Assembly (NCBI GenBank): GCA_037431425.1
Contig: GCA_037431425.1_4129.1
Length of the DNA stretch: 64,000 nt
Reading direction: 5' to 3' (one strand)
Origin: a phage
Shown here: positions 8,421 through 64,000 of the stretch, piece by piece
How positions within the stretch are numbered: position 1 is the first letter of the stretch
Layout: the number at the start of each line of letters is the position of its first letter
Position numbers and translations under genes: made by a program
Notes under the pieces: generated by a model
What the model saw: only the letters and a program-made list of their open reading frames with translations
Databases searched by the model: none
What the model was told of the DNA's origin: nothing

Positions 8421-8426
8421 TAATTT

Positions 8427-9052: not shown

Positions 9053-9310
<258 letters not shown>

Positions 9311-9412: not shown

Positions 9413-9465
<53 letters not shown>

Positions 9466-9466
9466 T

Positions 9467-9512
<46 letters not shown>

Positions 9513-9513
9513 T

Positions 9514-9647
<134 letters not shown>

Positions 9648-9649
9648 TA

Positions 9650-9833
<184 letters not shown>

Positions 9834-9913
9834 TAAATAATACAGTAAGATGGCCTCCCCTCCATATCATGAGAGTATAGAGACTTGTTGGTTATCTTAC
9901 TTTTAAACAAACT

Positions 9914-9987
9914 GCCTCAATAGCAAAATTGGTAATGCACACGTTTTGTAAGCGTGAGATTTTTCCGTTCGAGTCGGAATTGGGGCA
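9914..9987 (+). tRNA. tRNA-Thr (anticodon UGU), tentative
   Basis: Hand-folded: acceptor GCCTCAA/TTGGGGC (one GU), anticodon stem CACGT/GCGTG loop TTTGTAA, T-arm TTCCG-TTCGAGT-CGGAA; D-arm and variable loop slightly irregular. Confidence 0.55.
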
Positions 9988-10004
9988 CAAAATAAAGGCA
10001 CACT

Positions 10005-48436: not shown

Positions 48437-48484
48437 AATTTCTCTCCCTCATTCATTATACTGTATTTAACCCAATTAAGAAAA

Positions 48485-48503
48485 GCCAGTATCAAGTACT
48501 GGT
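48485..48503 (-). terminator. intergenic hairpin between RCC1-like paralogs
   Basis: CCAGTA-TCAAG-TACTGG preceded by A-run on + (T-run on - strand). Confidence 0.55.
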
Positions 48504-48509
48504 ATTTTA

Positions 48510-49859: not shown

Positions 49860-49906
49860 ATTTCCCTCCTTTATTCATTATACTATATTTAATACTAAAA
49901 GAAAAA

Positions 49907-49925
49907 GCCAGTACAGAGTACTGGC
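49907..49925 (-). terminator. intergenic hairpin between RCC1-like paralogs
   Basis: GCCAGTAC-AGA-GTACTGGC; T-run on - strand. Confidence 0.6.
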
Positions 49926-49931
49926 ATTATT

Positions 49932-51083: not shown

Positions 51084-51130
51084 ATTTCCCTCCTTTATTC
51101 ATTATACTATATTTAATACTAAAAGAAAAA

Positions 51131-51150
51131 GCCAGTACTTGAGTACTGGC
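51131..51150 (-). terminator. intergenic hairpin between RCC1-like paralogs
   Basis: GCCAGTACTTGAGTACTGGC; T-run on - strand. Confidence 0.6.
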
Positions 51151-51157
51151 TTTCTTA

Positions 51158-52348
51158 TTACAATTTTCTAGGTGTATCCAGAACATATCTATTTGTTTTA
51201 GGGCCACCATCATCATAAGTTCCGGTTGAATATATATTTTTCATATCAGCAGTTAGGAAAGTACGCAACGAACCGCGATATATTTTTATTTTATCATACA
51301 TAGAATATGTTATTTCTGACGGCAATGGACATGCAGTAAATTTACCAATGGTAGCATCATAACCAACACCCAATGTACCAGCATAACTACTCGCATTTAA
51401 ACCAGTTGCATATACACCTGCACTCGTAACTAGTATACTAGATTGTGCTGGGTATCCAGTATGGATTGAATAATAAGTACCAGGTGGCAATGTGGCACTA
51501 TTATTTCCTAAAACTCCATTAACATTGCTAGATGTAGTTTTATTTCCCCATGCTCCATTATTAGCTAATCCACCAACTAGAAACTGACGTGCTCCTGTAC
51601 TTGGATTCTCTACTAAAGCACTGACAGCACCAAATGAACAAACAGTATATTGTAATGTTTTTGTATATGTGGTACTTGGCTGATATAAAGTATATTCATT
51701 AAATGGTGTCCATGTGGTACTAGTACTTATGCCAGATGTAATACCACCAATATATAAATTATTTTGTTTATCAAACAACATTACACAGTTATATGTTGAC
51801 ATTATTTGTGCAATATCAACATCTGGTGTTACAGCTTTAACAAATGAGCCATCGGTTATTTGTTGAGTTTTTCCAGTACCATCTGCGAATTGTCTAGCAC
51901 TATTCCACCCTGTACTCCATATTGTATTATTATCCATTAAGAAAGTAAACCACGTAGTACCTGCATACATTTGTTTAATTGAAGTACTTGAACTTTGTTT
52001 GTACAAATTTTCAATATATTGGTTATAACTTAAAAACGTAGTAGTACTAGTTTCTAAACCAATATGACTACCATATCCACAATAAAAATAATTTAAGTCA
52101 TTATCTTGAACTAACAAAGTTCCTTGTGTCATCCAGCAATCTTTGATATTTTCTCTAATTAATGTCCACGACCTTACTGCATTATTATTTCCTCTACCAA
52201 ACTTCCCCCAACTATTACTGCCTCGTGCGTATAGTTGACCGTCGGTATAAAGTACAACAACCTCAGTATCAGTTGGTATTATTTTCTTAATTTGAAGTGG
52301 GACGGGTACAATATTCCCGTACTTAACTATTCTTCCAAAAGGTAACAT
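51158..52348 (-). CDS. RCC1-like repeat protein, paralog 4
   Basis: N-terminus MLPFGRIVKYGNIVP; repeat GSNSWGKFGRGNN. Confidence 0.7.
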   Translation of the reverse strand: MLPFGRIVKYGNIVPVPLQIKKIIPTDTEVVVLYTDGQLYARGSNSWGKFGRGNNNAVRSWTLIRENIKDCWMTQGTLLVQDNDLNYFYCGYGSHIGLETSTTTFLSYNQYIENLYKQSSSTSIKQMYAGTTWFTFLMDNNTIWSTGWNSARQFADGTGKTQQITDGSFVKAVTPDVDIAQIMSTYNCVMLFDKQNNLYIGGITSGISTSTTWTPFNEYTLYQPSTTYTKTLQYTVCSFGAVSALVENPSTGARQFLVGGLANNGAWGNKTTSSNVNGVLGNNSATLPPGTYYSIHTGYPAQSSILVTSAGVYATGLNASSYAGTLGVGYDATIGKFTACPLPSEITYSMYDKIKIYRGSLRTFLTADMKNIYSTGTYDDGGPKTNRYVLDTPRKL

Positions 52349-52391
52349 ATCCCCTCCTTATTCATTATACTATATTTAATCAAAAATAAAA

Positions 52392-52410
52392 GCCAGTATC
52401 AAGTACTGGC
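52392..52410 (-). terminator. intergenic hairpin between RCC1-like paralogs
   Basis: GCCAGTATCAAGTACTGGC. Confidence 0.6.
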
Positions 52411-52424
52411 ATAGTTTTATAATA

Positions 52425-53531
52425 TTATTTCGGCATCGTAATTGCAGACCATGAATTTGTAGTAATTGGACCTGGTATGTACACTAAAGAACCACATGCA
52501 TAAATTTGTCTATTCCCATCATACACAACACTAAAGTTAGTACAAGTAAACAATGACGAATTTAATGGATTGTAAGTATCTAATGTTAGTGTATTCACCC
52601 ACTTATTTGAACCTAGACCACCTGACCTACCAAATGCACCAGTACTGTATATCTTACCTTCAGTTGTTGCATATATATTAACATATGAAGTTGAACTGGA
52701 TTTAGCTATTTTATGTATCTTACTATCAATAGCACTGGAGTTAAATGTAAAAGGATATATTTCTACGTTAGTTGATGAACCATTACCGAGTTGACCAGAA
52801 TACTGCAAGCCAGCGACGTATGTACCACCACCTGAATATGCTATAGTACTAGTACTGTTACCTCCCATTATTTTAACACTAGTTAAACGACTTACTAAAG
52901 TAGTGTACTGACCTTTACTAACACCTAGTGAACCATAACTACTAGTACCACATCCAATAAGGTTACCGTTGGATGTTAAGATTAATGTGTTGTTTTGTGT
53001 ACCATATATATCAGCAACTTCATTTGTACCAGTATTCAGTACTAACACAAAAGCACTCTGTGAATTAGGATATCCACCACCGAGTGAATAGTTACTGTTC
53101 ATGCCTCTTCCATAAACCTTTGTACCACTAGCATCTACGTAGTGCATCGTATCTGAACCAATTGATATCATTTTAATATTAGATATGTGTGGAAATGAAG
53201 AAGTAACATCTAAACCACCCAAGGGGATTGCAGTATTACCCGTACCTAACTGAGAAGTAACTCCGTGCATTCTGAACTCTTCTCCTTTGAGATACAGAAG
53301 ATTGTACCCACCAGCCCATGCATCAGAAACACCCTCTGCAACTAATATCCAATTATTTTTTTCCGCTGTACCAACGGCATTCAACTGCCAATATGAATTA
53401 TCTCCACATCCATATAATGTACCATCACTATATAGTACGTACAAATTATTGGTTCCACAAAATACTTTCTTGATCGTTATACCTTCTGGAGCTATATTTC
53501 CATAGGTCATTATTCTTGCAAAAGGTAACAT
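52425..53531 (-). CDS. RCC1-like repeat protein, paralog 5
   Basis: N-terminus MLPFARIMTYGNIAP; repeat GDNSYWQLN. Confidence 0.7.
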   Translation of the reverse strand: MLPFARIMTYGNIAPEGITIKKVFCGTNNLYVLYSDGTLYGCGDNSYWQLNAVGTAEKNNWILVAEGVSDAWAGGYNLLYLKGEEFRMHGVTSQLGTGNTAIPLGGLDVTSSFPHISNIKMISIGSDTMHYVDASGTKVYGRGMNSNYSLGGGYPNSQSAFVLVLNTGTNEVADIYGTQNNTLILTSNGNLIGCGTSSYGSLGVSKGQYTTLVSRLTSVKIMGGNSTSTIAYSGGGTYVAGLQYSGQLGNGSSTNVEIYPFTFNSSAIDSKIHKIAKSSSTSYVNIYATTEGKIYSTGAFGRSGGLGSNKWVNTLTLDTYNPLNSSLFTCTNFSVVYDGNRQIYACGSLVYIPGPITTNSWSAITMPK

Positions 53532-53576
53532 ATCCCCTCCTTATTCATTATACTATATTTAATACAAATAAGAAAA

Positions 53577-53595
53577 GCCAGTATCAAGTACTGGC
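53577..53595 (-). terminator. intergenic hairpin between RCC1-like paralogs
   Basis: GCCAGTATCAAGTACTGGC. Confidence 0.6.
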
Positions 53596-53601
53596 CTATA
53601 T

Positions 53602-54771
53602 TTAAACTGGCGAATCTAATATAAATTCTAAACTACTAATGCCACCATATGTGACATCTGTTCCCGTGCTATATACAAAATTACCATCAGTTATATAAGT
53701 TCGGTTATAACTACCTGCCATCTGTGACTTACTATAATCAAACCCATCAGGTACGATTGCTTTGGTATATACTAATGCATTAGTAGATGTACCAATACCT
53801 AACATACCAGCTTGTGTAGATTGATTGTAGCCGCAACAATATATACCATCTGTTGTAGCAATAACTTGGTTATAATATGAAGTATTGTTAGCAATGCTTA
53901 CTACATCACCAGGTGGCATTAGTGATGCTGTTTGTACCTCAAATGCTCTATAATCTTTGAGAGAACCATCTTTCCCATCTGCTTGTGCACCAAATATTCT
54001 TGAACCACCATTTGCGATGATAGTTTTACCAGTAGGATCAGTGCCTATTGCCATTGCCATTGAAGTACCATTATTCACATAGTACTTTATATTAATTGTA
54101 TTACTTAAGCTGGTAGGAGCACCATAATATATATTATATAACTTACTTCCTGAACTTGTAACTGCATTGACTCTTCCTGTATAAAATAACCATCCTTGGT
54201 TTGTAACATAACCGTGCATTAAATTACTTGCAAACAATTTAACAGGTAATTGATTTGCTACGGTAGGAACAGTACTTTTGACGAATCTACCAGAAACATA
54301 GTTAATTGTTGTTCCATCACCCAACTGACCATCCGACCCTACTCCAGTACTCCATATTGTTTGGTCTGATAGTAACACACTTGTAGTCTGATAACTAATG
54401 GCTATATCTAATATTGGTAATGTTAATGTATTGAATATAGGCATAGCAGATGTCCATATTGATACTCCTGACCCTTTCATACCAACAGTTGTTGAACTTC
54501 CACTGTACCATATTTCATTATTGCTTTTCTTAACAACTATCGACGTGGCTCCCATCCAAAAATCTTCAACACCAGAAGTACTAAAAGTCCATGTAGTAAC
54601 AGTATTTTTGTGACCTAAACCCAAAATACCATATGCATTATCACCACGCACATATAAATCACCACTGTTTGTTAAAACAGCAACATTATCGTTGTTAGCA
54701 AGTATTTTTTTAATATTTGGTTTAGCAGGTGCAATATTCCCGTACTTAACCATCCTCGCAAAAGGTAACAA
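53602..54771 (-). CDS. RCC1-like repeat protein, paralog 6
   Basis: N-terminus MLPFARMVKYGNIAP; repeat GDNAYGILGLGHKN. Confidence 0.7.
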   Translation of the reverse strand: MLPFARMVKYGNIAPAKPNIKKILANNDNVAVLTNSGDLYVRGDNAYGILGLGHKNTVTTWTFSTSGVEDFWMGATSIVVKKSNNEIWYSGSSTTVGMKGSGVSIWTSAMPIFNTLTLPILDIAISYQTTSVLLSDQTIWSTGVGSDGQLGDGTTINYVSGRFVKSTVPTVANQLPVKLFASNLMHGYVTNQGWLFYTGRVNAVTSSGSKLYNIYYGAPTSLSNTINIKYYVNNGTSMAMAIGTDPTGKTIIANGGSRIFGAQADGKDGSLKDYRAFEVQTASLMPPGDVVSIANNTSYYNQVIATTDGIYCCGYNQSTQAGMLGIGTSTNALVYTKAIVPDGFDYSKSQMAGSYNRTYITDGNFVYSTGTDVTYGGISSLEFILDSPV

Positions 54772-54816
54772 AATTAAATCTCCAAAATTAAAATAATTAT
54801 ATAGTATTTACAAAAA

Positions 54817-54842
54817 TACCAGTACATATTTCAGTACTGGTA
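54817..54842 (-). terminator. intergenic hairpin between RCC1-like paralogs
   Basis: TACCAGTAC-ATATTTCA-GTACTGGTA. Confidence 0.55.
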
Positions 54843-54847
54843 TATTA

Positions 54848-55969
54848 TTAAAAGGGCAACGGTAACTCAGTAAAAGAACTTACGTCCGGTAAACCATACA
54901 TTGAATTAGCATCACCACAGTAATACCACTTCGTAGAATCATGTACCACCGATAAACGCAGTGCACATAACACTTCCTGTATGTCATTAAACACCATCGG
55001 GACTAACTCATATGTATCTGCAAATGAAGATACACCACCACTCGCATGAAAAGTATTTGTCCCAGCATAAAATAACTGATTAGTGTTCTTACCCACAGCA
55101 AATGTAATCAAATTCCCATCATTCTCCCATAAAGAAGAAAACTTATCAACACTACCAGAAAGCTCTGTGTAAGTACTCGTAATGGCATTAACCGCCGCCG
55201 CATTACCCATCTGTTTATTCAAGTTCTGCCCAGCAATAAAATATCTCGTTCGTGCACTAGAATCAGTATATAATAACCCAGTGTTCGTGGTCATCATTCC
55301 AATGTCCTTAATCGTCATACCAGGCTGTGAATAACTTAGATACGAAGTTAAATTAACATTATTACCCAACGAACCGTTAGAACTCATGCCACAACGATGT
55401 AATATACCACTTGTATCAACGTAGATAGTACTAACACCACTCGTATACAACTCTTGTACATTATTCGCAATAAACACAGCAGTCGCCTTATTACTAACCC
55501 CACCAAATGATAGGTTATTATCAAATCCCTTAGCGTATAATTGATTATTAGTAGTCAATAATCCAATCGTGTAATAAGACATTTTCATATCCCTTACTGT
55601 ACTCAAATCTACTGCCCCAAATTGATACGTAACATCTGTCCATTTGAAAATCTGTGCACTACCAACACCACCCGTTTCAAACCATTTGTCACCACAGTAC
55701 AATATGCGATTATCCTTAGTAAAGATAACTGTTAACGCTCCACTACCACACGCAAACTTTACATCACTTCTAACCTTCGTCCAATCACGTACATAGGTAG
55801 TGGTGTTATTACCTATACCTAACTTGCCATAACGGTTATAACCACGCACCCATAAATCACCACTCTTAGTAATTAATAGTAATGCGTCTCCTGTACTTAT
55901 TATTCGAAATCCCGATCTAGGATCAGGTACAATATTCCCGTACTTAACCATTCTCCCAAAAGGTAACAT
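54848..55969 (-). CDS. RCC1-like repeat protein, paralog 7
   Basis: N-terminus MLPFGRMVKYGNIVP; repeat GYNRYGKLGIGNN; first gene of the minus-strand array. Confidence 0.7.
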   Translation of the reverse strand: MLPFGRMVKYGNIVPDPRSGFRIISTGDALLLITKSGDLWVRGYNRYGKLGIGNNTTTYVRDWTKVRSDVKFACGSGALTVIFTKDNRILYCGDKWFETGGVGSAQIFKWTDVTYQFGAVDLSTVRDMKMSYYTIGLLTTNNQLYAKGFDNNLSFGGVSNKATAVFIANNVQELYTSGVSTIYVDTSGILHRCGMSSNGSLGNNVNLTSYLSYSQPGMTIKDIGMMTTNTGLLYTDSSARTRYFIAGQNLNKQMGNAAAVNAITSTYTELSGSVDKFSSLWENDGNLITFAVGKNTNQLFYAGTNTFHASGGVSSFADTYELVPMVFNDIQEVLCALRLSVVHDSTKWYYCGDANSMYGLPDVSSFTELPLPF

Positions 55970-56013
55970 AATTCCCTCCTTTATTCATTATATCATATTT
56001 ACCCAAAAAACAC

Positions 56014-56042
56014 TTGACACCCTTTCAGTACTGTTGTACGAT
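56014..56042 (+). promoter_or_regulatory. sigma70-type promoter (TTGACA-N17-TACGAT) at the head of the small-ORF array
   Basis: Lies in the divergent region between the RCC1-like array and the small-ORF array; contains CAGTACTG. Confidence 0.5.
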
Positions 56043-56067
56043 AGAAGGAATATTAGGAGAACTACAC

Positions 56068-56295
56068 ATGACAAATACCCTTAAGTACTACCTCAATACT
56101 CTGCCCGACCTAGAGTACGGGAAGTTTCTCGCAGATAGTTCGTGGCTGATTGAGCTAAAAACACATAACAGCCCTGGATGCACCCTTATGATGAACAATG
56201 CTATTGATACCCTTATAGTGAGTATTTTACATAGCAATATCTACAAGGATAACAATAAACAATTAACAAAAATATTAGTACTGCTATCTCTATGA
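56068..56295 (+). CDS. small protein, first member of tandem small-ORF array
   Basis: Track ORF 56014..56295 trimmed to ATG 56068 with SD taggaga, downstream of promoter 56014..56042. Confidence 0.5.
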   Translation: MTNTLKYYLNTLPDLEYGKFLADSSWLIELKTHNSPGCTLMMNNAIDTLIVSILHSNIYKDNNKQLTKILVLLSL

Positions 56296-56495
56296 ATATC
56301 GAACAGTTCTACATCAATGCACTACCAACTAAAAGTCTTCAAGAAAGCCTACTGTATACACAAAAGAATTTTAAAAACTTCAAACGTTGCCCTAAACTAC
56401 TGAACTCGTACATGAATAATATCATAAGAAATGTTTTACAAGGAGAAGAAAGTATGCAATACTATCACATCATTATCCTTATATTGGAGTACTAA
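56292..56495 (+). CDS. small array protein (about 67 aa)
   Basis: Track ORF; ATGA junction; hydrophobic C-terminus YHIIILILEY. Confidence 0.5.
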   Translation: MNIEQFYINALPTKSLQESLLYTQKNFKNFKRCPKLLNSYMNNIIRNVLQGEESMQYYHIIILILEY

Positions 56496-56496
56496 T

Positions 56497-56706
56497 ATGA
56501 ATACCGAACATAAAGAATTCTACACCAAATACCTCAGCAACGAAGAACAATTGTTTCTAAGAAGTGTATCACCTTTACGTATAGATACACCACACGCCAG
56601 AGAATGCTTTAATAATTGTATACGTAGTACCCTAGAAGCAATCGAATATAATAACAAAAATATTATGTACTCCAGTTTAATCGGACTAATATACTTCTAT
56701 GAATAA
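56497..56706 (+). CDS. small array protein (HKEFY...LIYFYE type)
   Basis: Track ORF 56431..56706 trimmed to ATG 56497 after upstream stop; near-paralog of 59716..59925. Confidence 0.5.
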   Translation: MNTEHKEFYTKYLSNEEQLFLRSVSPLRIDTPHARECFNNCIRSTLEAIEYNNKNIMYSSLIGLIYFYE

Positions 56707-56890
56707 TCATAAAGATTTCTATTGCAGTAAACTACACAAACAATACAGAGATTCATTTCCCAATGAACCTATGGATATGAATAGTCCCTTTTATAACTTT
56801 GACTTCAGACTGGAGACACGTTATGCAATAGAACATCAATTTCCTGAAACTAAGTACTTATCTATCATGAACCTCATCTTTAAGTTCTAA
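56699..56890 (+). CDS. small array protein
   Basis: Track ORF; HKDFY N-terminal motif. Confidence 0.45.
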   Translation: MNNHKDFYCSKLHKQYRDSFPNEPMDMNSPFYNFDFRLETRYAIEHQFPETKYLSIMNLIFKF

Positions 56891-56942
56891 AAGGTGCACC
56901 AAGGACAGAGTATTTTAATATAGTAAGGCTAATTACACTACC

Positions 56943-57128
56943 ATGAATCACATAAGCTACTACTACCAACAACTATCCGACAGAGACAAGTACAGTCACA
57001 ACTCCCATGTGTGGTACTACAAACGCGGCAGTATAAGAGACAAACATCATTACTTCAGTGCTGCTATAACAGAAGTACTAACAACTAAGTACACGTACAG
57101 AGCAGTACTGAAACTTATCTCTATATAA
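56943..57128 (+). CDS. small array protein, LKLISI subfamily
   Basis: Track ORF; C-terminal YTYRAVLKLISI. Confidence 0.5.
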   Translation: MNHISYYYQQLSDRDKYSHNSHVWYYKRGSIRDKHHYFSAAITEVLTTKYTYRAVLKLISI

Positions 57129-57136
57129 GGTACTAT

Positions 57137-57322
57137 ATGAATACATTTGAGTACTATACCAATAAACTATCTATGCCTGAAAGATCTCATCTCTATGTGT
57201 GGAGAAATGCGTATAAAAACGGAAATAAACTTATACAAAGAAATTCCCTTACAGTGTGTACCAATTTAATTAACGCAGAGTACCGCACATATATTGAAGT
57301 ACTGAAACTCATCTCTATCTAA
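57137..57322 (+). CDS. small array protein, LKLISI subfamily
   Basis: Track ORF; NTFEYY N-terminus; C-terminal YIEVLKLISI. Confidence 0.5.
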   Translation: MNTFEYYTNKLSMPERSHLYVWRNAYKNGNKLIQRNSLTVCTNLINAEYRTYIEVLKLISI

Positions 57323-57330
57323 GGTACTCT

Positions 57331-57510
57331 ATGCAAGAATTCTATATCTATAATCTCCAGCACAAAGATAGATACAACTATAATCAATTCCAAAGGTACT
57401 ACACCGTCGGGAACATCAAAGATAAAAAACGATACCTACTATCATGTACTGTAGATGCACAAAACAAAAAGTACACGTACAGAGAAGTACTGAAACTAAT
57501 TTCTATTTGA
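57331..57510 (+). CDS. small array protein, LKLISI subfamily (59 aa)
   Basis: Manually found, just under the track cutoff; C-terminal YTYREVLKLISI. Confidence 0.45.
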   Translation: MQEFYIYNLQHKDRYNYNQFQRYYTVGNIKDKKRYLLSCTVDAQNKKYTYREVLKLISI

Positions 57511-57518
57511 GGTAATAT

Positions 57519-57707
57519 ATGAATACTTTTGAGTACTACTTCAATAAACTAAATTCCATAGAACAAAATATGTACAATTCATATATTAAGTACTATCAAT
57601 CATCTGCACCTGGAATTAAAAATATATCAATAAAGATTATCACTAACCGTGTACTGACATCTGAACGTTATATGTATATGGATGCACTGAAACTCATCTC
57701 TATGTAA
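57519..57707 (+). CDS. small array protein, LKLISI subfamily
   Basis: Track ORF; NTFEYY N-terminus; C-terminal ALKLISM. Confidence 0.5.
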   Translation: MNTFEYYFNKLNSIEQNMYNSYIKYYQSSAPGIKNISIKIITNRVLTSERYMYMDALKLISM

Positions 57708-57717
57708 GGAATAAACT

Positions 57718-57897
57718 ATGAACAATTTCTATATAGAACACATAACCATAAAAGACCGTTTCATGTACGACACCTTCGTGAAGTACTACAACCTCGCAAC
57801 TAACAGTACTAAAAATATCAATCTCAATAGCTGCATACACCAAGCACTAACAAAAGAAAATCCCTTCAGGGAAATCCTTGCACTTGCATCTGTATAA
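57718..57897 (+). CDS. small array protein (59 aa)
   Basis: Manually found; C-terminal FREILALASV. Confidence 0.4.
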   Translation: MNNFYIEHITIKDRFMYDTFVKYYNLATNSTKNINLNSCIHQALTKENPFREILALASV

Positions 57898-57907
57898 AGG
57901 AATTCAA

Positions 57908-58573
57908 ATGAAACTTAATCCACAAAGTAAACAATACCTTAAGCACTTTAAGTACCTCAACAGTATTCAAGCAGAATCTATTACATCTTCTTATACTTAT
58001 CACCCGAATATACTAAAGAAACGAAATAAAAAGAATAAATCCAGTACAGATCTAGTATCAAAGAACCTCAAATCGTACTTGAAGAAAAATAATATCTCTA
58101 TTCATTGTGCGAATATCTATAATACTGATTTAAAAGCATTGAGTACTAATACCAGCACAAAAACACTAAAGAATACATCTATCTATATCTATATGCACCT
58201 GGATAATATCCCGTGCACTATAATTCTATCTTTCGGGAATGTATACTTCTTCGGGAATTGTAATACCACCCATGATATCCGTACAGCACAATTCCAAATC
58301 GGAGATATGTACTGCATGGGTTCAGAAAAAATACACGATAACATGCATTTCTTCCAACAGCAACGTACAGAAGAAACTAATACAGTACTAGAATTCCTCA
58401 AAGAACTTCAAAACAAAGAATTATCTCAAGAAGAACTATTCATGTACAGCACCGTAATCAATAATCCAGAACTCTACAAAAACGCGTACAATCTAACAAA
58501 ACATGTGCAGGAACTTATTAGTACTAATAAGAAAATTCATCACCTCATGACATATATTGCAAACTATGCATAA
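57908..58573 (+). CDS. hypothetical protein (about 221 aa) embedded in the small-ORF array
   Basis: Track ORF 57878..58573 trimmed to ATG 57908 with SD aaaggaa. Confidence 0.55.
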   Translation: MKLNPQSKQYLKHFKYLNSIQAESITSSYTYHPNILKKRNKKNKSSTDLVSKNLKSYLKKNNISIHCANIYNTDLKALSTNTSTKTLKNTSIYIYMHLDNIPCTIILSFGNVYFFGNCNTTHDIRTAQFQIGDMYCMGSEKIHDNMHFFQQQRTEETNTVLEFLKELQNKELSQEELFMYSTVINNPELYKNAYNLTKHVQELISTNKKIHHLMTYIANYA

Positions 58574-58751
58574 AGAATACTACCAAAATAAACTCCCAAT
58601 GCATCTACAACACCTTGTACCAACAGAACCATTGGGTATAGAAAAAGACTACGAAAAAGACTACTTCATTAAGTGCACCAAATCCTCAATAGATATTGAG
58701 GACTATAATCGAGTACTGTATCACATCCTTTTACTAATATATAAGTACTAA
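58566..58751 (+). CDS. small array protein, KEYYQNKLPM subfamily
   Basis: Track ORF 58557..58751 (TTG) trimmed to ATG 58566; C-terminal LLLIYKY. Confidence 0.5.
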   Translation: MHKEYYQNKLPMHLQHLVPTEPLGIEKDYEKDYFIKCTKSSIDIEDYNRVLYHILLLIYKY

Positions 58752-58752
58752 T

Positions 58753-58947
58753 ATGAATAATGAATACTATAAAGAATACTACCAAAATAAACTCCCTATG
58801 TATCTACAACACCTTATACCAACAAAACCTATTGGCATAAAAGATCATGAAAAAATAATGTTCCAACAATGTTCTAAGTACATCCTAATAGACGATCACA
58901 ATCCATATATGCTGTACTATATAATAATGCTAACATTCAGGTACTAA
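58753..58947 (+). CDS. small array protein, KEYYQNKLPM subfamily
   Basis: Track ORF; close paralog of 58566..58751. Confidence 0.55.
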   Translation: MNNEYYKEYYQNKLPMYLQHLIPTKPIGIKDHEKIMFQQCSKYILIDDHNPYMLYYIIMLTFRY

Positions 58948-58948
58948 T

Positions 58949-59131
58949 ATGCACAAAGAATACTACACACAATTTCTCCCCAGTATATTTGAACACTACG
59001 CCAGATATAAAGTCCCACTGGATAACGATTTGGCAGTACTCGGATTCAATAACTGCATAGAACGCAGTATAGAAAATAGTAGTTCATATGACCAACTATA
59101 TAACACTATCCTACTTATATTCAGGTACTAA
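58949..59131 (+). CDS. small array protein
   Basis: Track ORF; HKEYY N-terminus; C-terminal LLIFRY. Confidence 0.5.
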   Translation: MHKEYYTQFLPSIFEHYARYKVPLDNDLAVLGFNNCIERSIENSSSYDQLYNTILLIFRY

Positions 59132-59132
59132 T

Positions 59133-59321
59133 ATGTTTAAAGAATACTACGCAAAATATTTCCCAATGTATCTCAGAACTAATCTATTAGATAAACCTCG
59201 CGATATCAATGCTCAAAACGATAAAGTGTACTTTATTATGTGCACTAAAGCATGTATACTAGATCATGACAGCTACCATCGAGTACTCTATCATACACTG
59301 TACCTAACATTCGTGTACTAA
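59133..59321 (+). CDS. small array protein
   Basis: Track ORF 59088..59321 trimmed to ATG 59133; FKEYY N-terminus. Confidence 0.5.
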   Translation: MFKEYYAKYFPMYLRTNLLDKPRDINAQNDKVYFIMCTKACILDHDSYHRVLYHTLYLTFVY

Positions 59322-59331
59322 AGAGAACATT

Positions 59332-59526
59332 ATGCAACACAAGTTCAAAGAATTCTACTTAAGCCGCCTGGAACTAAACTCCCAAATGCTTATACCACTA
59401 AAACCAATAGATATCAAGGATAAGAAAAATACCCAACAATTCATCTACCATACACAGTGTGCTATCTCCCCAGATTATAATACATATAAATTGTACTATA
59501 TCATCGCCCTAATACTCAGGTACTAA
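59332..59526 (+). CDS. small array protein
   Basis: Track ORF; FKEFY N-terminus; C-terminal ALILRY. Confidence 0.5.
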   Translation: MQHKFKEFYLSRLELNSQMLIPLKPIDIKDKKNTQQFIYHTQCAISPDYNTYKLYYIIALILRY

Positions 59527-59528
59527 TC

Positions 59529-59714
59529 ATGTATAAAGAATACTACACACAATTTGTTAAAGAAAACTACAAATATGCCGTCCCCATAAAACCCTTAAAT
59601 GCTAATGACCCAAATACTATATTCCTGTTTAATGACGCAATACGTACAGTACTCAATACTAAAGATGAACAAGTGCAGTACGTATTCTTACTTTTACTTA
59701 TATACAGACACTAA
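59529..59714 (+). CDS. small array protein
   Basis: Track ORF; YKEYY N-terminus; C-terminal LLLIYRH. Confidence 0.5.
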   Translation: MYKEYYTQFVKENYKYAVPIKPLNANDPNTIFLFNDAIRTVLNTKDEQVQYVFLLLLIYRH

Positions 59715-59715
59715 T

Positions 59716-59925
59716 ATGAATAAAGTACATAAAGAATTCTATTCCAGATACCTCAGCCTATCAGAACAAATGTTTATAAGATCTACACCACCATTAAGTA
59801 CTGATACTTACTTCGGTAGAGTATGCTACAATAAATGTGTACAAATGACTTTAAACGCAAACGACAATAATAACAGTACTAACCTGTACTCAGGCATCAT
59901 AGGTATACTATTTCTATATGATTAA
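59716..59925 (+). CDS. small array protein
   Basis: Track ORF 59599..59925 trimmed to ATG 59716; near-paralog of 56497..56706. Confidence 0.5.
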   Translation: MNKVHKEFYSRYLSLSEQMFIRSTPPLSTDTYFGRVCYNKCVQMTLNANDNNNSTNLYSGIIGILFLYD

Positions 59926-60100
59926 AGAATATAAAGACTTCTACATAAGAAAACTAACATTCGTCCCCGTAAGAATATACAAAGAATGCGACCCAAGATT
60001 ATACCTATGGCACTTCAATGAGTGCATAAAAGATTCTATATACCCTAAGAACTATAAAGAACAATTGTGCTCAGTACTAACACTAGTACTATCATATTAA
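59918..60100 (+). CDS. small array protein
   Basis: Track ORF; IKEYKDFY N-terminus. Confidence 0.5.
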   Translation: MIKEYKDFYIRKLTFVPVRIYKECDPRLYLWHFNECIKDSIYPKNYKEQLCSVLTLVLSY

Positions 60101-60113
60101 TAGAGATAATACT

Positions 60114-60326
60114 ATGAATAAAGAACATAAAAACTTCTATATAAGTAAACTAAAAGAAAATGAACAAGTATGGATTAGATCTATAATAGAACTGGCATTT
60201 AATAGATACGCACTGAATAGATGTACACAGATTGCTATAGACCCTTATCCCATTGAAGAGGATGAAAAGGATGTACAGTACAATCAGTACTACTATATCT
60301 TAATGCTTATATATAGACCTATATAG
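60114..60326 (+). CDS. small array protein, last member
   Basis: Track ORF; NKEHKNFY N-terminus; C-terminal LMLIYRPI. Confidence 0.5.
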   Translation: MNKEHKNFYISKLKENEQVWIRSIIELAFNRYALNRCTQIAIDPYPIEEDEKDVQYNQYYYILMLIYRPI

Positions 60327-60340
60327 GAAACTACACAGGC

Positions 60341-60426
60341 GAATTGCTAAAATTCAGCCTGCTATACGTCTGAATTGTTAAAATTCAGCCTGCTATACGT
60401 CTGAATTGTTAAAATTCAGCCTGGAC
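60341..60426. repeat. tandem direct repeat, about 29-bp unit x 2.5
   Basis: AATTG(C/T)TAAAATTCAGCCTGCTATACGTCTG repeated head-to-tail. Confidence 0.8.
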
Positions 60427-60467
60427 AAATGCGATCACCAGGATTCTCTCCAGGCTAAACACCGTAG

Positions 60468-60535
60468 TCATAAGTAATCATAAGTAATCATATATAAACA
60501 TTTATATGAGCATTTATAAGCATTTATAAGCACCG
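60468..60535. repeat. short tandem repeats
   Basis: ATAAGTAATC x2 then ATTTATAAGC x2. Confidence 0.7.
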
Positions 60536-61027
60536 TAGAATCACAGAATGATTATATATGATTCAGTACTGCCCCAAAAGTATTCAGTACTGAAGAATTA
60601 CCCCTGAATGATTCAGTACTGATATGCCACTAAGTAGGCAGAGGAAGTCTGCCGTACTTTGTAGTTTCCAAGCTCCTTTTCCATTTTGCAAATTACATCA
60701 AATGTAATCAAAAGTAATCACGTAATGATTAGTACTGAAATATTAGTTTCATCTTTTTTCAAATACCTTTTTACCCTTCGGGGTAAATGTATTTTTACCC
60801 ATTTACCTTTGGGGTAAAATCCCATTACCCCTTGAGGCTCCAGCAAAAAGTTGGAAAGTACTCCATCCTAAATCTCGATCCTAAAAATTTTGGAGTACCT
60901 ATGAAATAAAAGTTGGATCTTCGAAAGTTGAAATTTACGTTGGGACGTTTATGATTTGTGGGATATAATGATGTTTGTAGTCGGGTAGTTCTCAAGAATA
61001 TCAGTACTGAATGGTGAAAGAAAGTTA

Positions 61028-61055
61028 TTGACATTATGATTCAGTACTGTATAAT
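61028..61055 (+). promoter_or_regulatory. sigma70-type promoter (TTGACA-N16-TATAAT) in the non-coding region
   Basis: Consensus; TTCAGTACTG immediately upstream of -10; no obvious ORF downstream. Confidence 0.55.
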
Positions 61056-61383
61056 GTTCTACATAGAGAGATGAGTTGCTGCGAACAATTCATTTACTCT
61101 ACCTCCTGTCGTGAGACAGTACAGAAAAGATAGTTCCTCCTGTGGTGGTACATCTTTTTGAACCTCATATGAAAATCGTAATAACAGTACTGGTATTAAC
61201 AGAATGGTATCAGTACTGACTTTAATCTAATACATTATACCACCAGCTTGTGCTGGTGGATTCCCTCTAACAGTATTCAGTACTACATGATAGTCTTCAT
61301 CCTCCTAGGGTAACATAGTGAGGGCTATTGTGGGAGTACTGAATACTCCTTTCAAAAGATAGAATAATGGTATAGTACCGACG

Positions 61384-62000
61384 GATTTTGGGCGTAGTTA
61401 CCCTGGGTGTATTTTGGACGTAGATATGTCTAGCCCTCCAGAAGTCTGGAAGTAAAGATGGCTATCTATCTAGACGGCTAAACGGCTAGATTTCTAGATG
61501 GCTGTATGGCTAGACGTTTGGATGGCTAAACGGCTAAACGGCTAGATGGTTACACGTCTGGAAGTATAGACGGCTAAATCAAAATTTTTATTTTGTTTTT
61601 CCAATAGTTCCCCTACCGCGTGAGGATATTTTTTCCCCGCAGTATCTGGAGTTAGATTTTTCTGAATCTGGAATCATTATCTAATAAACTGGGGGCAATG
61701 TCAACCGCCTGGATGAATATTTTTAAAAAATAATCTAGTACTAAATTTTGGGCGTAACTATGCACCCGGTGGGCTTGAGTCTTTCTCGACTTGATGAAAT
61801 AATTATATCAGTACTGAAAAAATAAAGCAATACCCTAAACGCAAAAAAAATTTAATTAATTTGCTTGCTATTCTGGGCCGTACTATGGTACTATTAATTC
61901 AGTACTGAGAAAGTGCTTTTACCTGCTAGGGTGCGGGAGTGTATCCTTTTTAAATTTTATGAATTTTGGGCAGATCTCCGCACCCTGTGGGTTAGTGCCT
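61384..62000. repeat. dispersed copies of ATTTTGGGCG...CACCC(G/T)GTGGG element
   Basis: Copies near 61384, 61745, 61958, with a partial copy at 63940. Confidence 0.55.
61441..61575. repeat. iteron-like cluster of degenerate short repeats
   Basis: At least 8 copies of GGCTA(A/G/T)ACGG / ATGGCT(A/G)T units bracketed by CCAGAAGTCTGGAAGTA and CACGTCTGGAAGTAT. Confidence 0.75.
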
Positions 62001-62204
62001 TGTGTCCGGCTTATGTAGTAATTATACGCTTTTTCAGTACTGAGTCAATACCTAAAAACAAAATAATTGAAAATAATTTAACGCGTTTAAACGGCCCGTA
62101 AAGCCCTGGAATGATTAGAATGGTGCAAATGTATAGCTTAGGTGTAATATCTCGTTAGAATGCGACTGAGGCCGTTTTACGGGGTATAGGGATGATTTAG
62201 TGGA

Positions 62205-62296
62205 TTGATTCAGTACTGAATAATAGTACTCCTATATAGAAAGATAGTTCCCCTGGATGGTTGCAGTACTGAATAATAGTACTCCTATATAGAAAG
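62205..62296. repeat. direct repeat pair, about 38 bp
   Basis: CAGTACTGAATAATAGTACTCCTATATAGAAAGA occurs twice about 50 bp apart. Confidence 0.8.
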
Positions 62297-62329
62297 AAAA
62301 CTATTTTAAAAAGTATTTGTAGAAAGTAC

Positions 62330-62358
62330 TTGCACCGTACTGATAAAAGCGTATAATG
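62330..62358 (+). promoter_or_regulatory. promoter (TTGCAC-N17-TATAAT) plus conserved leader hairpin
   Basis: Followed by GAGAGCGGGAGCACTTCCCGCT stem-loop before ORF 62356. Confidence 0.6.
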
Positions 62359-62775
62359 TTTTACATCGAGAGCGGGAGCACTTCCCGCTACACATTAAGA
62401 GAGATTAAAACGATGGCGACTCAAATCAATAAAATTATTGCTAACCTGGTTAACTTCCGTGAAGAGATGAAAGGTCTTCCGGCTGAAACGGTAAAAATTC
62501 ACATTTCAGCTTATCGGGAACTTATTGCAATGTTACCGCTTAAGCGTGAACAATACGCCGCTACCGTGATGCTTGATGCGATGATCAATAAGATGATCGC
62601 CAGTGATTTAACGATGGTTTATCAGTACATGGGCGAAAATTTCGCGGTGTCTGGTAAGCCAGTACCAGGGATGGCAACTACTGAGGAATTGCACGGTTTA
62701 AATTTAAAACAAGATGCATGGGATAATATGCCTCGTTTCCTGGTATGGGCTGACAGTGGCAAAATTTACAAATAA
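62356..62775 (+). CDS. hypothetical protein (139 aa)
   Basis: Track ORF with own promoter 62330..62358 and leader hairpin; more G/C-rich codons than the rest of the window. Confidence 0.6.
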   Translation: MFYIESGSTSRYTLREIKTMATQINKIIANLVNFREEMKGLPAETVKIHISAYRELIAMLPLKREQYAATVMLDAMINKMIASDLTMVYQYMGENFAVSGKPVPGMATTEELHGLNLKQDAWDNMPRFLVWADSGKIYK

Positions 62776-62790
62776 GTTTAATAAAGTACT

Positions 62791-62819
62791 TGCCAACTAA
62801 GTTTAAAAGCGTATAATAC
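62791..62819 (+). promoter_or_regulatory. promoter (TTGCCA-N17-TATAAT)
   Basis: Same AAGCGTATAAT core as 62330 and 63496; leader hairpin GGGAAGTTTAAAAACTTCCC. Confidence 0.6.
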
Positions 62820-62896
62820 TTTACATCAGGTGCAACGGGAAGTTTAAAAACTTCCCTATAGGGGAATAGTTCCCCACTATATAAGAGGATTAAAAA

Positions 62897-63136
62897 ATGG
62901 CTAAATCAAAAATGTTCTTAGGTCACAAAAACAAAACTCATTGGAATGTAAGCCTTTGGATTAATAACGATGAATCATTATACCGGTTGGCCCTGGACTT
63001 TATTGCCGCTAATACTAATCGCAATGATGCGGCCCGTCATATGATGTTATTTTTAGAACAGACTGGACAAGATAAAACACCGGACGGATTCAAATATAGC
63101 ACTACTGCGATCCGTGCGGCGATGGTTGGAATGTAA
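62897..63136 (+). CDS. hypothetical small protein
   Basis: Track ORF with own promoter 62791..62819; SD agagga. Confidence 0.6.
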   Translation: MAKSKMFLGHKNKTHWNVSLWINNDESLYRLALDFIAANTNRNDAARHMMLFLEQTGQDKTPDGFKYSTTAIRAAMVGM

Positions 63137-63150
63137 TAGAATTTATTTAA

Positions 63151-63184
63151 AGTACTATCGCAAAAAATGATAGTACTTTATAAT
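63151..63184 (+). promoter_or_regulatory. palindromic operator-like site (AGTACTATC-N9-GATAGTACT) overlapping a -10 TATAAT
   Basis: Perfect 9-bp inverted repeat flanking a 9-bp spacer, ending at the TATAAT at 63179. Confidence 0.45.
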
Positions 63185-63221
63185 AGTGTTTTATTCATAC
63201 ACCAACGATAAGGGCAATAGC

Positions 63222-63488
63222 ATGAATATTAAGTATTTTGCGACGCGTGAACAAGCTCGGAAGGCGGCGAAAGTGGAAGGTGCAACGTTTAAAGATATGG
63301 GCATACAATCGGAACGTGGTAAACGTTGGGCCATTGTAAAGCGTAGTACAGCCAGATCATTACAGTACTGGTTAGCGGCTTTAAAAAGTCCTGCTAGTGT
63401 ATCGCGTCGAGTGGTAGAAATAAAGCTCGACCGTAAGGGGAATCGTGTTACCGTGTACCGTACTAAAAAGATAGCAGTACTTGAATAA
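63222..63488 (+). CDS. hypothetical basic protein
   Basis: Track ORF 63186..63488 starts upstream of the predicted TSS; ATG 63222 after aaggg is preferred. Confidence 0.5.
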   Translation: MNIKYFATREQARKAAKVEGATFKDMGIQSERGKRWAIVKRSTARSLQYWLAALKSPASVSRRVVEIKLDRKGNRVTVYRTKKIAVLE

Positions 63489-63495
63489 AAAGAAC

Positions 63496-63523
63496 TTGCA
63501 AACTATGTTTAATGGCGTATAAT
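63496..63523 (+). promoter_or_regulatory. promoter (TTGCAA-N16-TATAAT) plus conserved leader hairpin
   Basis: Followed by GAGAGCGGGAACACTTCCCGCC, near-identical to the leader at 62370. Confidence 0.6.
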
Positions 63524-63575
63524 GTTTTACATCGAGAGCGGGAACACTTCCCGCCTATAAACTGGAGTAATAAAA

Positions 63576-63806
63576 ATGACTAATATGTATATGACTGAAG
63601 TTAAAACCGTAAAAGATACTACCACGAATAAAACTACTTACTTACAGCGGATCTGCGGTGTATGGCAACGTATCAGCAAATCAAAGTACTATAAATTAAC
63701 ATCATATGCCAATCGTTCGGATTCATTCAGTACTGAAATAAAAGGTAATAAAGTACACCAATACGGCACTTATTATTATTATAGCCTGGACGCGATTGCA
63801 GTATAA
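63576..63806 (+). CDS. hypothetical small protein
   Basis: Track ORF with own promoter 63496..63523 and leader hairpin. Confidence 0.55.
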   Translation: MTNMYMTEVKTVKDTTTNKTTYLQRICGVWQRISKSKYYKLTSYANRSDSFSTEIKGNKVHQYGTYYYYSLDAIAV

Positions 63807-63836
63807 GTAGTTTACAAATCTTTACAATTGCCGGTA

Positions 63837-63865
63837 TTGACTTAAAATGTCAGTACTGGCATAAT
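63837..63865 (+). promoter_or_regulatory. sigma70-type promoter (TTGACT-N17-CATAAT)
   Basis: Contains CAGTACTG; near the window end. Confidence 0.45.
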
Positions 63866-64000
63866 GTATCTATTGAAACGAACAATTTGGCCCACGGGGT
63901 GCGGGAGTGTATCTATAGCAAAATTAGTTTAGTATAATTACAATTGTGCACCCGGTGGGTTAGCTGTTGTCATGGGGTATATTATGCCAGTACTTGATAA

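What the first reader, a model, noticed from the sequence alone, without database searches (positions are those of the whole stretch)
56014..60326. Array of about 19 tandem small paralogous ORFs (59-70 aa)
From 56.0 to 60.3 kb the + strand is almost entirely small ORFs joined by TAATATG-type junctions, with recurring N-terminal motifs ((N/H/F)KE(Y/F)Y..KL) and hydrophobic C-terminal motifs (LLLIYKY / ILRY / LKLISI). Subfamilies are visible (KEYYQNKLPM pair at 58566-58947; LKLISI group at 56943-57707), and one larger gene (57908..58573) is embedded. Such extensive tandem amplification implies ongoing duplication and diversification of a small-protein family; anti-defence or host-takeover roles are one possibility.
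Basis: seen in the sequence. Interest (0 to 1): 0.8.

Follow-up and report, generated by a model that had tools for sequence, protein, structure and literature searches.

The report
Tandem small-protein gene family in jumbo phage
A giant E. coli phage carries one operon of 18 back-to-back genes for related ~60-residue helical proteins found only in this phage genus; the genes are real and the set is reshuffled between strains, but what the proteins do is unknown.

Summary
Window 56068-60326 (+) carries 18 abutting genes of 59-75 aa, plus one unrelated 221-aa gene.

- **Operon:** one promoter of the sigma-70 type, conserved in all 13 genomes compared, and mostly coupled stop/start junctions.
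- **One superfamily:** three subgroups (A, B, C) join at profile level, with hhalign scores of 26-39 against a shuffle null of about 9±2.
- **Real genes:** every small gene has pN/pS below 1 against its orthologs (pooled 0.33).
- **Structure:** AlphaFold gives a confident small helical fold (pLDDT 91) with no informative structural match.
- **Distribution:** the family occurs only in Asteriusvirus jumbo phages (121Q/PBECO4 group), as 36 clusters among 1.84 billion representative proteins. It is always a stand-alone protein.
- **Position:** the array ends about 300 bp before the point that aligns with the start of the ~21-kb terminal repeat.

"Ongoing duplication" is not supported. The closest paralogs are 57% identical, and no ortholog group occurs twice in a genome. 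Instead the array is a turnover hotspot. Against a phage 97-98% identical in the flanks it is about 88% identical and differs by whole-gene insertions, deletions and replacements, with one joint inside the shared 5' motif.

An early accessory (host-takeover or anti-defence) role is the likeliest function, but it is inferred, not shown.

The parts
56014..56042 (+). Promoter of the sigma-70 type, TTGACA-N17-TACGAT, with the palindrome CAGTACTG (56026-56033) in the spacer. It drives the array.
   Evidence: Consensus scan gives 10/12; sequence read. The -35 box, palindrome, -10 box (TACTAT in most genomes) and AGGAG are conserved in 13 genomes.
56055..56059 (+). AGGAG Shine-Dalgarno site for the first gene. 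It is the only strong SD in the array.
56068..56295 (+). m01, 75 aa, subgroup C
   Evidence: pN/pS 0.29
56292..56495 (+). m02, 67 aa, subgroup C; its start overlaps the m01 stop by 4 nt
   Evidence: pN/pS 0.63
56497..56706 (+). m03, 69 aa, subgroup B (phrog_11711). This slot is empty in the closest relative, ph0011.
56699..56890 (+). m04, 63 aa, subgroup B; 8-nt overlap with m03
56943..57128 (+). m05, 61 aa, subgroup A (C-terminal LKLISI)
57137..57322 (+). m06, 61 aa, subgroup A. A close match (at least 95% aa) is present in only 18 of the 36 Asteriusvirus records.
57331..57510 (+). m07, 59 aa, subgroup A
57519..57707 (+). m08, 62 aa, subgroup A
57718..57897 (+). m09, 59 aa, subgroup A
57908..58573 (+). 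m10, 221 aa (phrog_29152, unknown function). It sits at this position in 11 of the 13 arrays examined (not scored in CMSTMSU). It is not related to the small family and is restricted to Asteriusvirus.
   Evidence: AF2 pLDDT 44.7
58566..58751 (+). m11, 61 aa, subgroup B. The AF2 model was built for this member. ph0011 has a different B-type gene in this slot.
58753..58947 (+). m12, 64 aa, subgroup B; 57% identical to m11
58949..59131 (+). m13, 60 aa, subgroup B
59133..59321 (+). m14, 62 aa, subgroup B
59332..59526 (+). m15, 64 aa, subgroup B
59529..59714 (+). m16, 61 aa, subgroup B
59716..59925 (+). m17, 69 aa, subgroup B; 48% identical to m03
59918..60100 (+). m18, 60 aa, subgroup B
60114..60326 (+). 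m19, 70 aa, subgroup B; the last gene of the array
60327..60632 (.). Short repeat-rich spacer between the array and the point that aligns with base 1 of the fEgEco12 terminal repeat (about 60633)
   Evidence: Alignment with both ends of fEgEco12; DTR size from PMC13070987; tandem repeats

Best explanation
The region is one operon encoding a lineage-restricted multigene family of small soluble helical proteins. The steps below are marked as shown or inferred.

**Shown**
- A conserved promoter of the sigma-70 type (TTGACA-N17-TAC(T/G/A)AT) and one strong ribosome-binding site precede m01. Most later genes follow by stop/start overlap or gaps of 1-13 nt, which implies coupled translation. The exception is a 52-nt gap before m05.
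- All 18 small proteins descend from one ancestor.
- They share a hydrophobic core: Y6, and positions 5, 10, 34, 37, 42, 51, 54, 55, 57 and 58 in m11 numbering. Nearly every other position differs between paralogs.
- Each paralog is kept by purifying selection in its orthologs.
- Gene content changes by whole-gene units. One joint lies in the 5' motif shared by neighbouring genes, as expected of unequal homologous recombination. The array diverges several-fold faster than its flanks.

**Inferred**
- The operon is read early by host RNA polymerase. It belongs to the block of small accessory genes that lies next to and inside the terminal repeat.
- Its products act as a repertoire of small binders. 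Each would have its own host target: a host factor, a defence component or a competitor phage.
- Individual members are therefore dispensable, and the set is reshuffled between phage strains.
For: **Operon anatomy.** Promoter and SD. Junctions.

**One superfamily.**

**Coding.** pN/pS is 0.10-0.63, pooled 0.33. It is 0.18 at core positions and 0.38 at surface positions.

**Fold and properties.** AF2 gives pLDDT 90.9 and pTM 0.73, with four helices. Conserved positions are hydrophobic and the rest have entropy of about 3 bits. Mean hydropathy (GRAVY) is negative for 17 of the 18 small members. pI ranges from 5.5 to 9.6.

**Restricted and always stand-alone.**

**Dispensable and patchy.** 13-22 members per genome; about a third of the ortholog groups are patchy.

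**Hotspot and unit indels.** Flanks are 97.2-97.9% identical and the array 88%. The m03 indel is exactly one gene, with its joint inside ATG...ATAAAGA(A/T)TTCTA.

**Position.** The array ends 307 bp before the point aligned with base 1 of fEgEco12, whose DTR was verified by restriction digests.

**Relative phage CBB.** RpoD-like promoters cluster in the short-hypothetical-gene block just upstream of and inside the terminal repeat. That paper reads this block as early/host takeover, and finds that late genes use a T4-like ATAAATA motif (PMC5259590).

**Not in the virion.** No array gene is among the 62 virion proteins of phAPEC6, although a 4.7-kDa protein was detected there (PMC7247149).
Against: - There is no expression data for any Asteriusvirus. 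Timing rests only on promoter resemblance, and the window's -10 box (TACGAT) is imperfect.
- Surfaces are under purifying rather than positive selection between orthologs. There is no arms-race signature within ortholog lineages.
- Coupled translation of many paralogs would equally suit subunits of one assembly.
- The conserved back-to-back arrangement with seven RCC1-like genes could point to a functional link with those genes instead.
Confidence: 0.45

Rival explanations
1. The small proteins partner the adjacent RCC1-like beta-propeller paralogs, as chaperones, adaptors or regulators. The locus would then be two families that expanded together around a shared divergent control region.
For: - Seven tandem RCC1-like genes (47291-55969, - strand) abut the array head-to-head.
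- The arrangement and the ~100-bp intergenic region are conserved in all 13 genomes compared, including the metagenomic contig in that set.
- phAPEC6 has eleven RCC1-like genes, so both families are multi-copy.
- Coupled translation suits stoichiometric partners.
Against: - Two RCC1-like proteins are in the phAPEC6 virion, but no array protein is.
- The array has a -35 TTGACA promoter. The opposite strand shows only a weak 9/12 match, GTGTCA-17-TATGAT, so different timing is possible but not established.
- Copy numbers were not shown to co-vary.
- Chaperone genes normally lie downstream of their client on the same strand (general knowledge).
Confidence: 0.15
2. The proteins are packaged in the capsid and injected with the DNA, like the polymorphic internal-protein loci of T-even phages. 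The shared N-terminal motif would act as a capsid-targeting signal.
For: - This is a tandem, strain-polymorphic set of small ORFs with a conserved N-terminus, MN..KE(Y/F)Y.
- The parallel with the T4 internal proteins (IPI-III) is recalled from memory, not tested here.
Against: - None of gp540c-548c is in the phAPEC6 virion proteome.
- Conservation spans the whole fold, including the C-terminal helix, not just a leader.
- The residue three before the conserved Glu is H, Y or F, not the L or I of the T4 protease site (by eye). The protease specificity of this genus is unknown.
- The promoter looks like an early type, not a late one.
Confidence: 0.08
3. The proteins regulate the phage's own programme. 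For example, they might bind host RNA polymerase, the phage RpoD-like sigma factor, or nucleic acid.
For: - They are small helical proteins behind a promoter of the early type.
- Subgroup A is basic, with pI 9.3-9.6 for four of its five members.
- The phage encodes a sigma-70-family factor in the same large region (annotations).
Against: - There is no helix-turn-helix or other nucleic-acid-binding fold among the structural matches.
- Eighteen diversified and individually dispensable paralogs are hard to reconcile with a core regulatory role.
Confidence: 0.1
4. The region is not functional protein-coding DNA: either chance ORFs or non-coding repeats.
For: - The composition is unusual for + strand genes here, with GC skew of -0.20 to -0.27 and AT skew of +0.18 to +0.20.
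- Many public records leave some members unannotated.
Against: - 19 abutting same-strand ORFs in 33% GC DNA.
- pN/pS is below 1 for all 18 small genes.
- Reading frames and starts are conserved in all 13 genomes examined.
- The AF2 fold is confident.
- There are no gene-length DNA repeats and no Rfam match.
- The composition is explained by Tyr-rich (11%), Gly-poor (1.2%) proteins.
Confidence: 0.02

Closest known systems
PHROG family phrog_11711 (unknown function)
   Same: Eleven of the 18 members (all of subgroup B) match it over their full length, with E values from 1e-13 to 1e-27 for the four scored individually.
   Different: The seven subgroup A and C members fall in no PHROG. They join B only at profile-profile level. 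The PHROG carries no function, structure or description of the array.
Early host-takeover or accessory gene blocks next to or inside long terminal repeats of large virulent phages: the CBB early region (PMC5259590), and the T5 pre-early and SPO1 host-takeover modules (both from general knowledge)
   Same: Runs of short genes of unknown function behind sigma-70-like promoters, sited at the terminal-repeat boundary.
   Different: Those blocks are mostly unrelated genes. Here 18 of 19 genes are one family under a single promoter with coupled translation. Early timing is not demonstrated here.
Terminal multigene families of large eukaryotic DNA viruses: ASFV MGF110/360/505 and poxvirus terminal host-range families (general knowledge)
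   Same: Tandem diverged paralogs beside terminal repeats, with gene content that differs between isolates through unit-length gain and loss.
   Different: No sequence or structural relationship. The proteins here are much smaller and the host is bacterial. A role in host range or immune evasion is untested.
Polymorphic internal-protein (IP) loci of T-even phages (recalled from memory)
   Same: A strain-variable tandem set of small ORFs sharing an N-terminal motif.
   Different: The members were not detected in a related virion proteome. Homology covers the whole protein. No recognisable protease site; the promoter is of the early type.
Anti-CRISPR and anti-defence operons
   Same: Small, fast-turning-over, lineage-restricted proteins in one operon behind a strong promoter.
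   Different: No associated HTH (aca-type) regulator was found among the operon proteins scanned. There is no similarity to anything known. The operon holds one paralogous family rather than unrelated inhibitors. Activity is untested.

Membership tests
phrog_11711 | Full-length hmmscan match to the PHROG profile | tested here: met
   11 of 18 members match, all of subgroup B. E values are 1e-13 to 1e-27 for the four scored individually, and 1.1e-27 is the best among the 11.
phrog_11711 | The same match for subgroup A and C members | tested here: not met
   m01, m02 and m05-m09 match no PHROG at E of 0.1 or better, apart from scattered chance hits above 0.05.
Single A+B+C superfamily (defined here) | Full-length collinear profile-profile similarity above a composition-preserving null | tested here: met
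   hhalign scores are A-B 39.4 (E 1.6e-8), B-C 29.8 and A-C 26.5. The column-shuffle null is 8-9±2 with a maximum of 15, and 0 of 100 shuffles reach the observed score.
Single A+B+C superfamily (defined here) | The embedded 221-aa gene m10 contains a family domain | tested here: not met
   For the whole protein, the N-terminal 60 residues and the C-terminal 70 residues, hhalign probability is 1.4% or less. Scores do not stand clearly above the shuffle null.
Early genes of Rak2-like jumbo phages | RpoD/sigma-70-type promoter with a TTGACA -35 box | tested here: met
   TTGACA-N17-TAC(T/G/A)AT is conserved in 13 genomes. The class definition comes from PMC5259590.
Early genes of Rak2-like jumbo phages | Transcribed in the first minutes of infection | not testable with these tools
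   No Asteriusvirus transcriptome was found.
T4-type internal (injected) proteins | Presence in the virion | tested here: not met
   The phAPEC6 virion MS lists gp549 and gp551 but none of gp540c-548c. This comes from a related phage, not this one.
T4-type internal (injected) proteins | An N-terminal targeting leader ending in a prohead-protease site | tested here: inconclusive
   A conserved MN..KE(Y/F)Y exists but does not fit the T4 L/I-x-E rule. The protease specificity of this genus is unknown.
Anti-CRISPR / anti-defence operon | Associated HTH regulator (aca-like) in the operon | tested here: not met
   No Pfam domain was found in the 10 operon proteins scanned, which included m10.
Anti-CRISPR / anti-defence operon | Demonstrated inhibition of a defence system, or homology to a known inhibitor | not testable with these tools
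Terminal multigene family of a large DNA virus (functional analogy) | Tandem paralogs adjacent to the terminal repeat, with isolate-to-isolate variation in gene content | tested here: met
   The array ends 307 bp before the mapped DTR start. Genomes hold 13-22 members. Whole-gene differences exist against a relative 98% identical in the flanks.
Known bacterial defence-system proteins (PADLOC) | Match to a PADLOC model | tested here: not met
   Only isolated hits with E of 0.002 or weaker, each for a single member.

The most novel reading that the evidence does not exclude
This is a bacteriophage counterpart of the terminal multigene families of ASFV and poxviruses. It would be a cassette-type repertoire of ~60-residue helical binders on one conserved scaffold. 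Each would neutralise a different host defence or host factor, and strains would exchange them by unit-length recombination. That would define a new anti-defence protein family and fold.
Probability: 0.25. Interest if true: 0.7.

Novelty: new member of a known kind. Interest (0 to 1): 0.4.

Why it matters
Jumbo phages are mostly genes of unknown function, and this genus is being developed for therapy against pathogenic E. coli and Salmonella. An 18-gene single-family operon is an unusually clean target.

- It can be deleted as one block or gene by gene.
- Natural variants already differ by whole cassettes.
- A confident structural model exists.

If the proteins set host range or counter defence systems, the array would explain strain-specific plating differences among phages that are otherwise 98% identical. 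It would also supply a scaffold for new inhibitors. If not, it is still a clear case of how a tandem gene family evolves in a phage genome: old paralogs, purifying selection on each, and turnover by unequal recombination.

Tried and rejected
**Is m10 a fused or expanded family member?** By eye its C-terminus looks family-like. hhalign on the whole protein and on both ends does not stand clearly above the shuffle null, so this was rejected.

**Structure of m10.** AF2 gave pLDDT 44.7, which is unusable, so no fold search was run on it.

**Fold searches with the good m11 model.**
- Foldseek against PDB: nothing below E 5.
- BFVD: only family members match.
- afdb50 was unavailable.

**Sequence libraries.** Pfam, NCBIfam, PADLOC and a PDB profile search gave nothing meaningful.

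**Other checks.**
- Other copies in the window: none.
- Recent duplication: none.
- Positive selection on variable positions between orthologs: pN/pS 0.38, so not seen.
- ncRNA in 55800-62500: no Rfam hit.
- Presence in complete E. coli genomes: none.
- Literature on the array, its promoters or Asteriusvirus transcriptomes: nothing found. The CAGTACTG text search returned only unrelated primer sequences.

Full report
**Identity of the window.** The region is about 88% identical at nucleotide level to the 121Q/PBECO4 group of ~350-kb jumbo coliphages (genus Asteriusvirus), with 36 matching phage records. The closest relative is Escherichia phage ph0011, at 97.9% over window 20000-44000. A protein identical to the embedded 221-aa gene is annotated on a 126-kb contig of an NCBI "Escherichia coli" assembly, which is probably the source. 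No complete E. coli genome holds the array.

**Checking the observation.** The ORF listing and direct translation show 19 consecutive ATG-initiated ORFs on the + strand from 56068 to 60326.
- Eighteen are 59-75 aa and one (57908-58573) is 221 aa.
- Positive gaps sum to 126 nt of 4259, so about 97% is coding.
- Junctions are TAAtATG in five cases, one 4-nt overlap, three 8-nt overlaps, and spacers of 8-13 nt holding a weak AGG/GAGG. There is a single 52-nt gap before m05.
- Only m01 has a strong AGGAG ribosome-binding site.

**Are they paralogs?**
- BLASTP all-vs-all defines three subgroups. A is m05-m09 (C-terminal LKLISI). B is m03, m04 and m11-m19. C is the weak pair m01-m02.
- I collected 208 members from 12 genomes and built subgroup profiles.
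- hhalign links A-B (probability 95.5%, E 1.6e-8, score 39.4), B-C (87.6%, 3.5e-6, 29.8) and A-C (68.9%, 4.5e-5, 26.5). All three are full-length and collinear.
- Column-shuffled controls that keep composition score 8-9±2 with a maximum of 15, and reversed alignments score 12-14. None of 100 shuffles reaches the observed value.
- The 18 small genes are therefore one superfamily.
- The consensus is MNxKEYYxxxL...FNxC...YxxILxLIxxY, with M1 and Y6 invariant.
- The 221-aa gene is not related. The whole protein and its N- and C-terminal parts do not stand clearly above the null.

**Are they genes?**
- Against ungapped orthologs in up to nine relatives, every small member has pN/pS below 1 (range 0.10-0.63, pooled 0.33).
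- Core positions give 0.18 and variable positions 0.38.
- TRF finds no gene-length DNA repeat and Rfam finds nothing.
- The unusual strand composition (GC skew about -0.2 to -0.27, AT skew about +0.2) follows from the protein composition: Tyr 11% against 5.4% in the window's long ORFs, and Gly 1.2% against 7.6%.

**Protein properties.**
- AlphaFold2 on m11 with a 61-sequence family alignment gives pLDDT 90.9 and pTM 0.73. The helices are at residues 3-7, 12-15, 28-40 and 47-60.
- Conserved columns are almost all hydrophobic (5, 6, 10, 18, 34, 37, 42, 51, 54, 55, 57, 58). The rest have entropy of about 3 bits. This means a fixed core with a free surface.
- Mean hydropathy (GRAVY) is negative for 17 of the 18 small members, and pI ranges from 5.5 to 9.6.
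- Pfam, NCBIfam, PADLOC and a PDB profile search are empty.
- PHROGs places the 11 B members in phrog_11711 (unknown function) and A and C nowhere.

**Distribution.**
- tblastn finds the family only in the 36 Asteriusvirus records from E. coli and Salmonella.
- A profile search of 5.8 billion proteins gives 47 hits.
- An exhaustive HMMER scan of 1.84 billion representatives gives 36 clusters, all stand-alone proteins of 41-69 aa (all but one truncated 41-aa hit are 57-69 aa).
- The most divergent of these trace to Asteriusvirus JNE01 and A4, or to short unnamed contigs.
- A metagenomic contig shows the same synteny.

**Architecture and context.**
- In the genomes with complete arrays the order is: RCC1-like genes on the - strand, then a divergent intergenic region. 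Then come C and B genes, two to six A genes, the ~220-240-aa gene, and nine to twelve B genes. An ORF-poor ~2-kb stretch follows.
- The ~100-bp intergenic region is much better conserved than the genes. It carries TTGACA-N17-TAC(T/G/A)AT with the palindrome CAGTACTG in the spacer, then AGGAG and the ATG, in all 13 genomes.
- Base 1 of fEgEco12 aligns to window 60633, which is 307 bp after the last stop codon. That phage's 20,993-bp direct terminal repeat was verified by restriction digests (PMC13070987).
- In the related phage CBB, RpoD-like promoters cluster in the block of short hypothetical genes just upstream of and inside the terminal repeat. The authors read that block as early/host takeover, and report that late genes use a T4-like ATAAATA motif (PMC5259590).
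- The phAPEC6 virion proteome contains two adjacent RCC1-like proteins but no array protein (PMC7247149).

**Evolutionary dynamics.**
- At 70% aa identity or more the members fall into 46 ortholog-like groups. None occurs twice in a genome.
- Sixteen groups include a window member. Thirteen of these are in 9-11 of the 12 genomes, and many of the remaining groups are patchy.
- Totals run from 13 to 22 per genome.
- The closest in-window paralogs are 57% (m11-m12) and 48% (m03-m17) identical. The duplications are therefore old.
- The array is nonetheless a hotspot. Against ph0011 the left flank is 97.2% identical and the array body 88.1%.
- Gene content also differs from ph0011. The m03 slot is empty, and an m03-like gene sits between the m14 and m15 orthologs. 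There are extra C-type and A-type genes, and the m11 slot holds a different B-type gene.
- The m03 difference is exactly one gene. Its joint lies inside the 5' motif ATG...ATAAAGA(A/T)TTCTA shared by m03 and m04. That is what unequal homologous recombination between neighbours would leave.

**Interpretation.** Firmly established:
- a real, single-promoter, largely translationally coupled operon;
- an Asteriusvirus-restricted small helical protein superfamily;
- each paralog individually maintained;
- the set reshuffled by whole-gene recombination at the edge of the terminal repeat.

Inferred at moderate confidence (about 0.45): early expression by host RNA polymerase, and a role as a repertoire of accessory binders (host takeover, anti-defence or inter-phage competition). 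This rests on promoter type, position, dispensability and absence from the virion.

Against this inference: there are no expression data, no similarity to any characterised protein, and no positive-selection signal. The conserved pairing with the RCC1-like array could instead indicate a partnership with those proteins.

**Novelty.** No paper was found that describes the array. Its genes are deposited as hypothetical proteins, and only part of the family is catalogued, as a PHROG of unknown function. It is best filed as a new, uncharacterised member of a known kind: the lineage-specific small accessory gene blocks or multigene families at the termini of large viruses. It stands out for its size and for being a single family.

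Noticed in passing
whole window; e.g. 7267, 7647, 8406, 24153, 56026, 61042, 63851: The 8-bp palindrome CAGTACTG occurs 43 times, against 0.72 expected. A subset sits in the spacer of near-consensus promoters of the sigma-70 type (TTGACw-N8-TTCAGTACTG-TATAAT). These include sites upstream of tRNA genes, at the head of the array and in the terminal repeat. It may be a phage-specific promoter element or an operator.
   Followed up: partly
window 60327-62355: An ORF-poor ~2-kb stretch follows the array. The point aligned with base 1 of the fEgEco12 terminal repeat is about 60633, where a small stem-loop sits (60634-60653). From that point on the window matches fEgEco12 far more closely than the array does, judged by eye from the alignment (against ph0011, 60640-64000 is 95.8% identical). 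There is no Rfam match. The stretch may hold terminus or packaging signals and early promoters.
   Followed up: partly
window 60341-60532: Short tandem duplications lie immediately before the mapped terminus. A 31-bp unit is present in 2.7 copies (60341-60423; fEgEco12 has fewer copies), and 10-bp units lie at 60464-60532.
   Followed up: no
window 61458-61578: A tract with 8/16/24-bp periodicity (GGCTAAAC / GATGGCTA...), iteron-like, lies inside the terminal repeat.
   Followed up: no
window 47291-55969 (- strand): Seven tandem genes of 368-449 aa. The two scanned are RCC1-like/WD40_RLD beta-propellers. They form a second multigene array, back-to-back with the small-gene array. Orthologs gp549 and gp551 are virion proteins in phAPEC6.
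   Followed up: partly
window 57908-58573: A 221-aa gene (phrog_29152) is found at this position in 11 of the 13 arrays examined and is restricted to Asteriusvirus. It has no domain match, and the AF2 model is unusable (pLDDT 44.7). One metagenome source labels an ortholog 'prefoldin subunit 5', which nothing here supports.
   Followed up: partly
window 56000-60000: The coding strand of the array has negative GC skew (-0.20 to -0.27) and strongly positive AT skew (+0.18 to +0.20). Most of the + strand gene region of the window has positive GC skew. The difference is explained by Tyr/Asn/Lys/Ile-rich, Gly-poor proteins.
   Followed up: yes
window 62897-63136: A 79-aa protein of family DUF7249 lies in the terminal repeat. 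The metagenomic relative L013 carries two copies.
   Followed up: no
window 6153-9988: A cluster of six tRNA genes (Ser-TGA, Arg-TCT, Ser-GCT, Met, Asn, Thr), with CAGTACTG-type promoters nearby.
   Followed up: no
source of the window: A protein 100% identical to m10 is annotated as an Escherichia coli protein (WJW27_002794) on a 125,904-nt contig. This suggests a phage contig within a bacterial assembly. No complete E. coli genome in RefSeq carries the array.
   Followed up: partly
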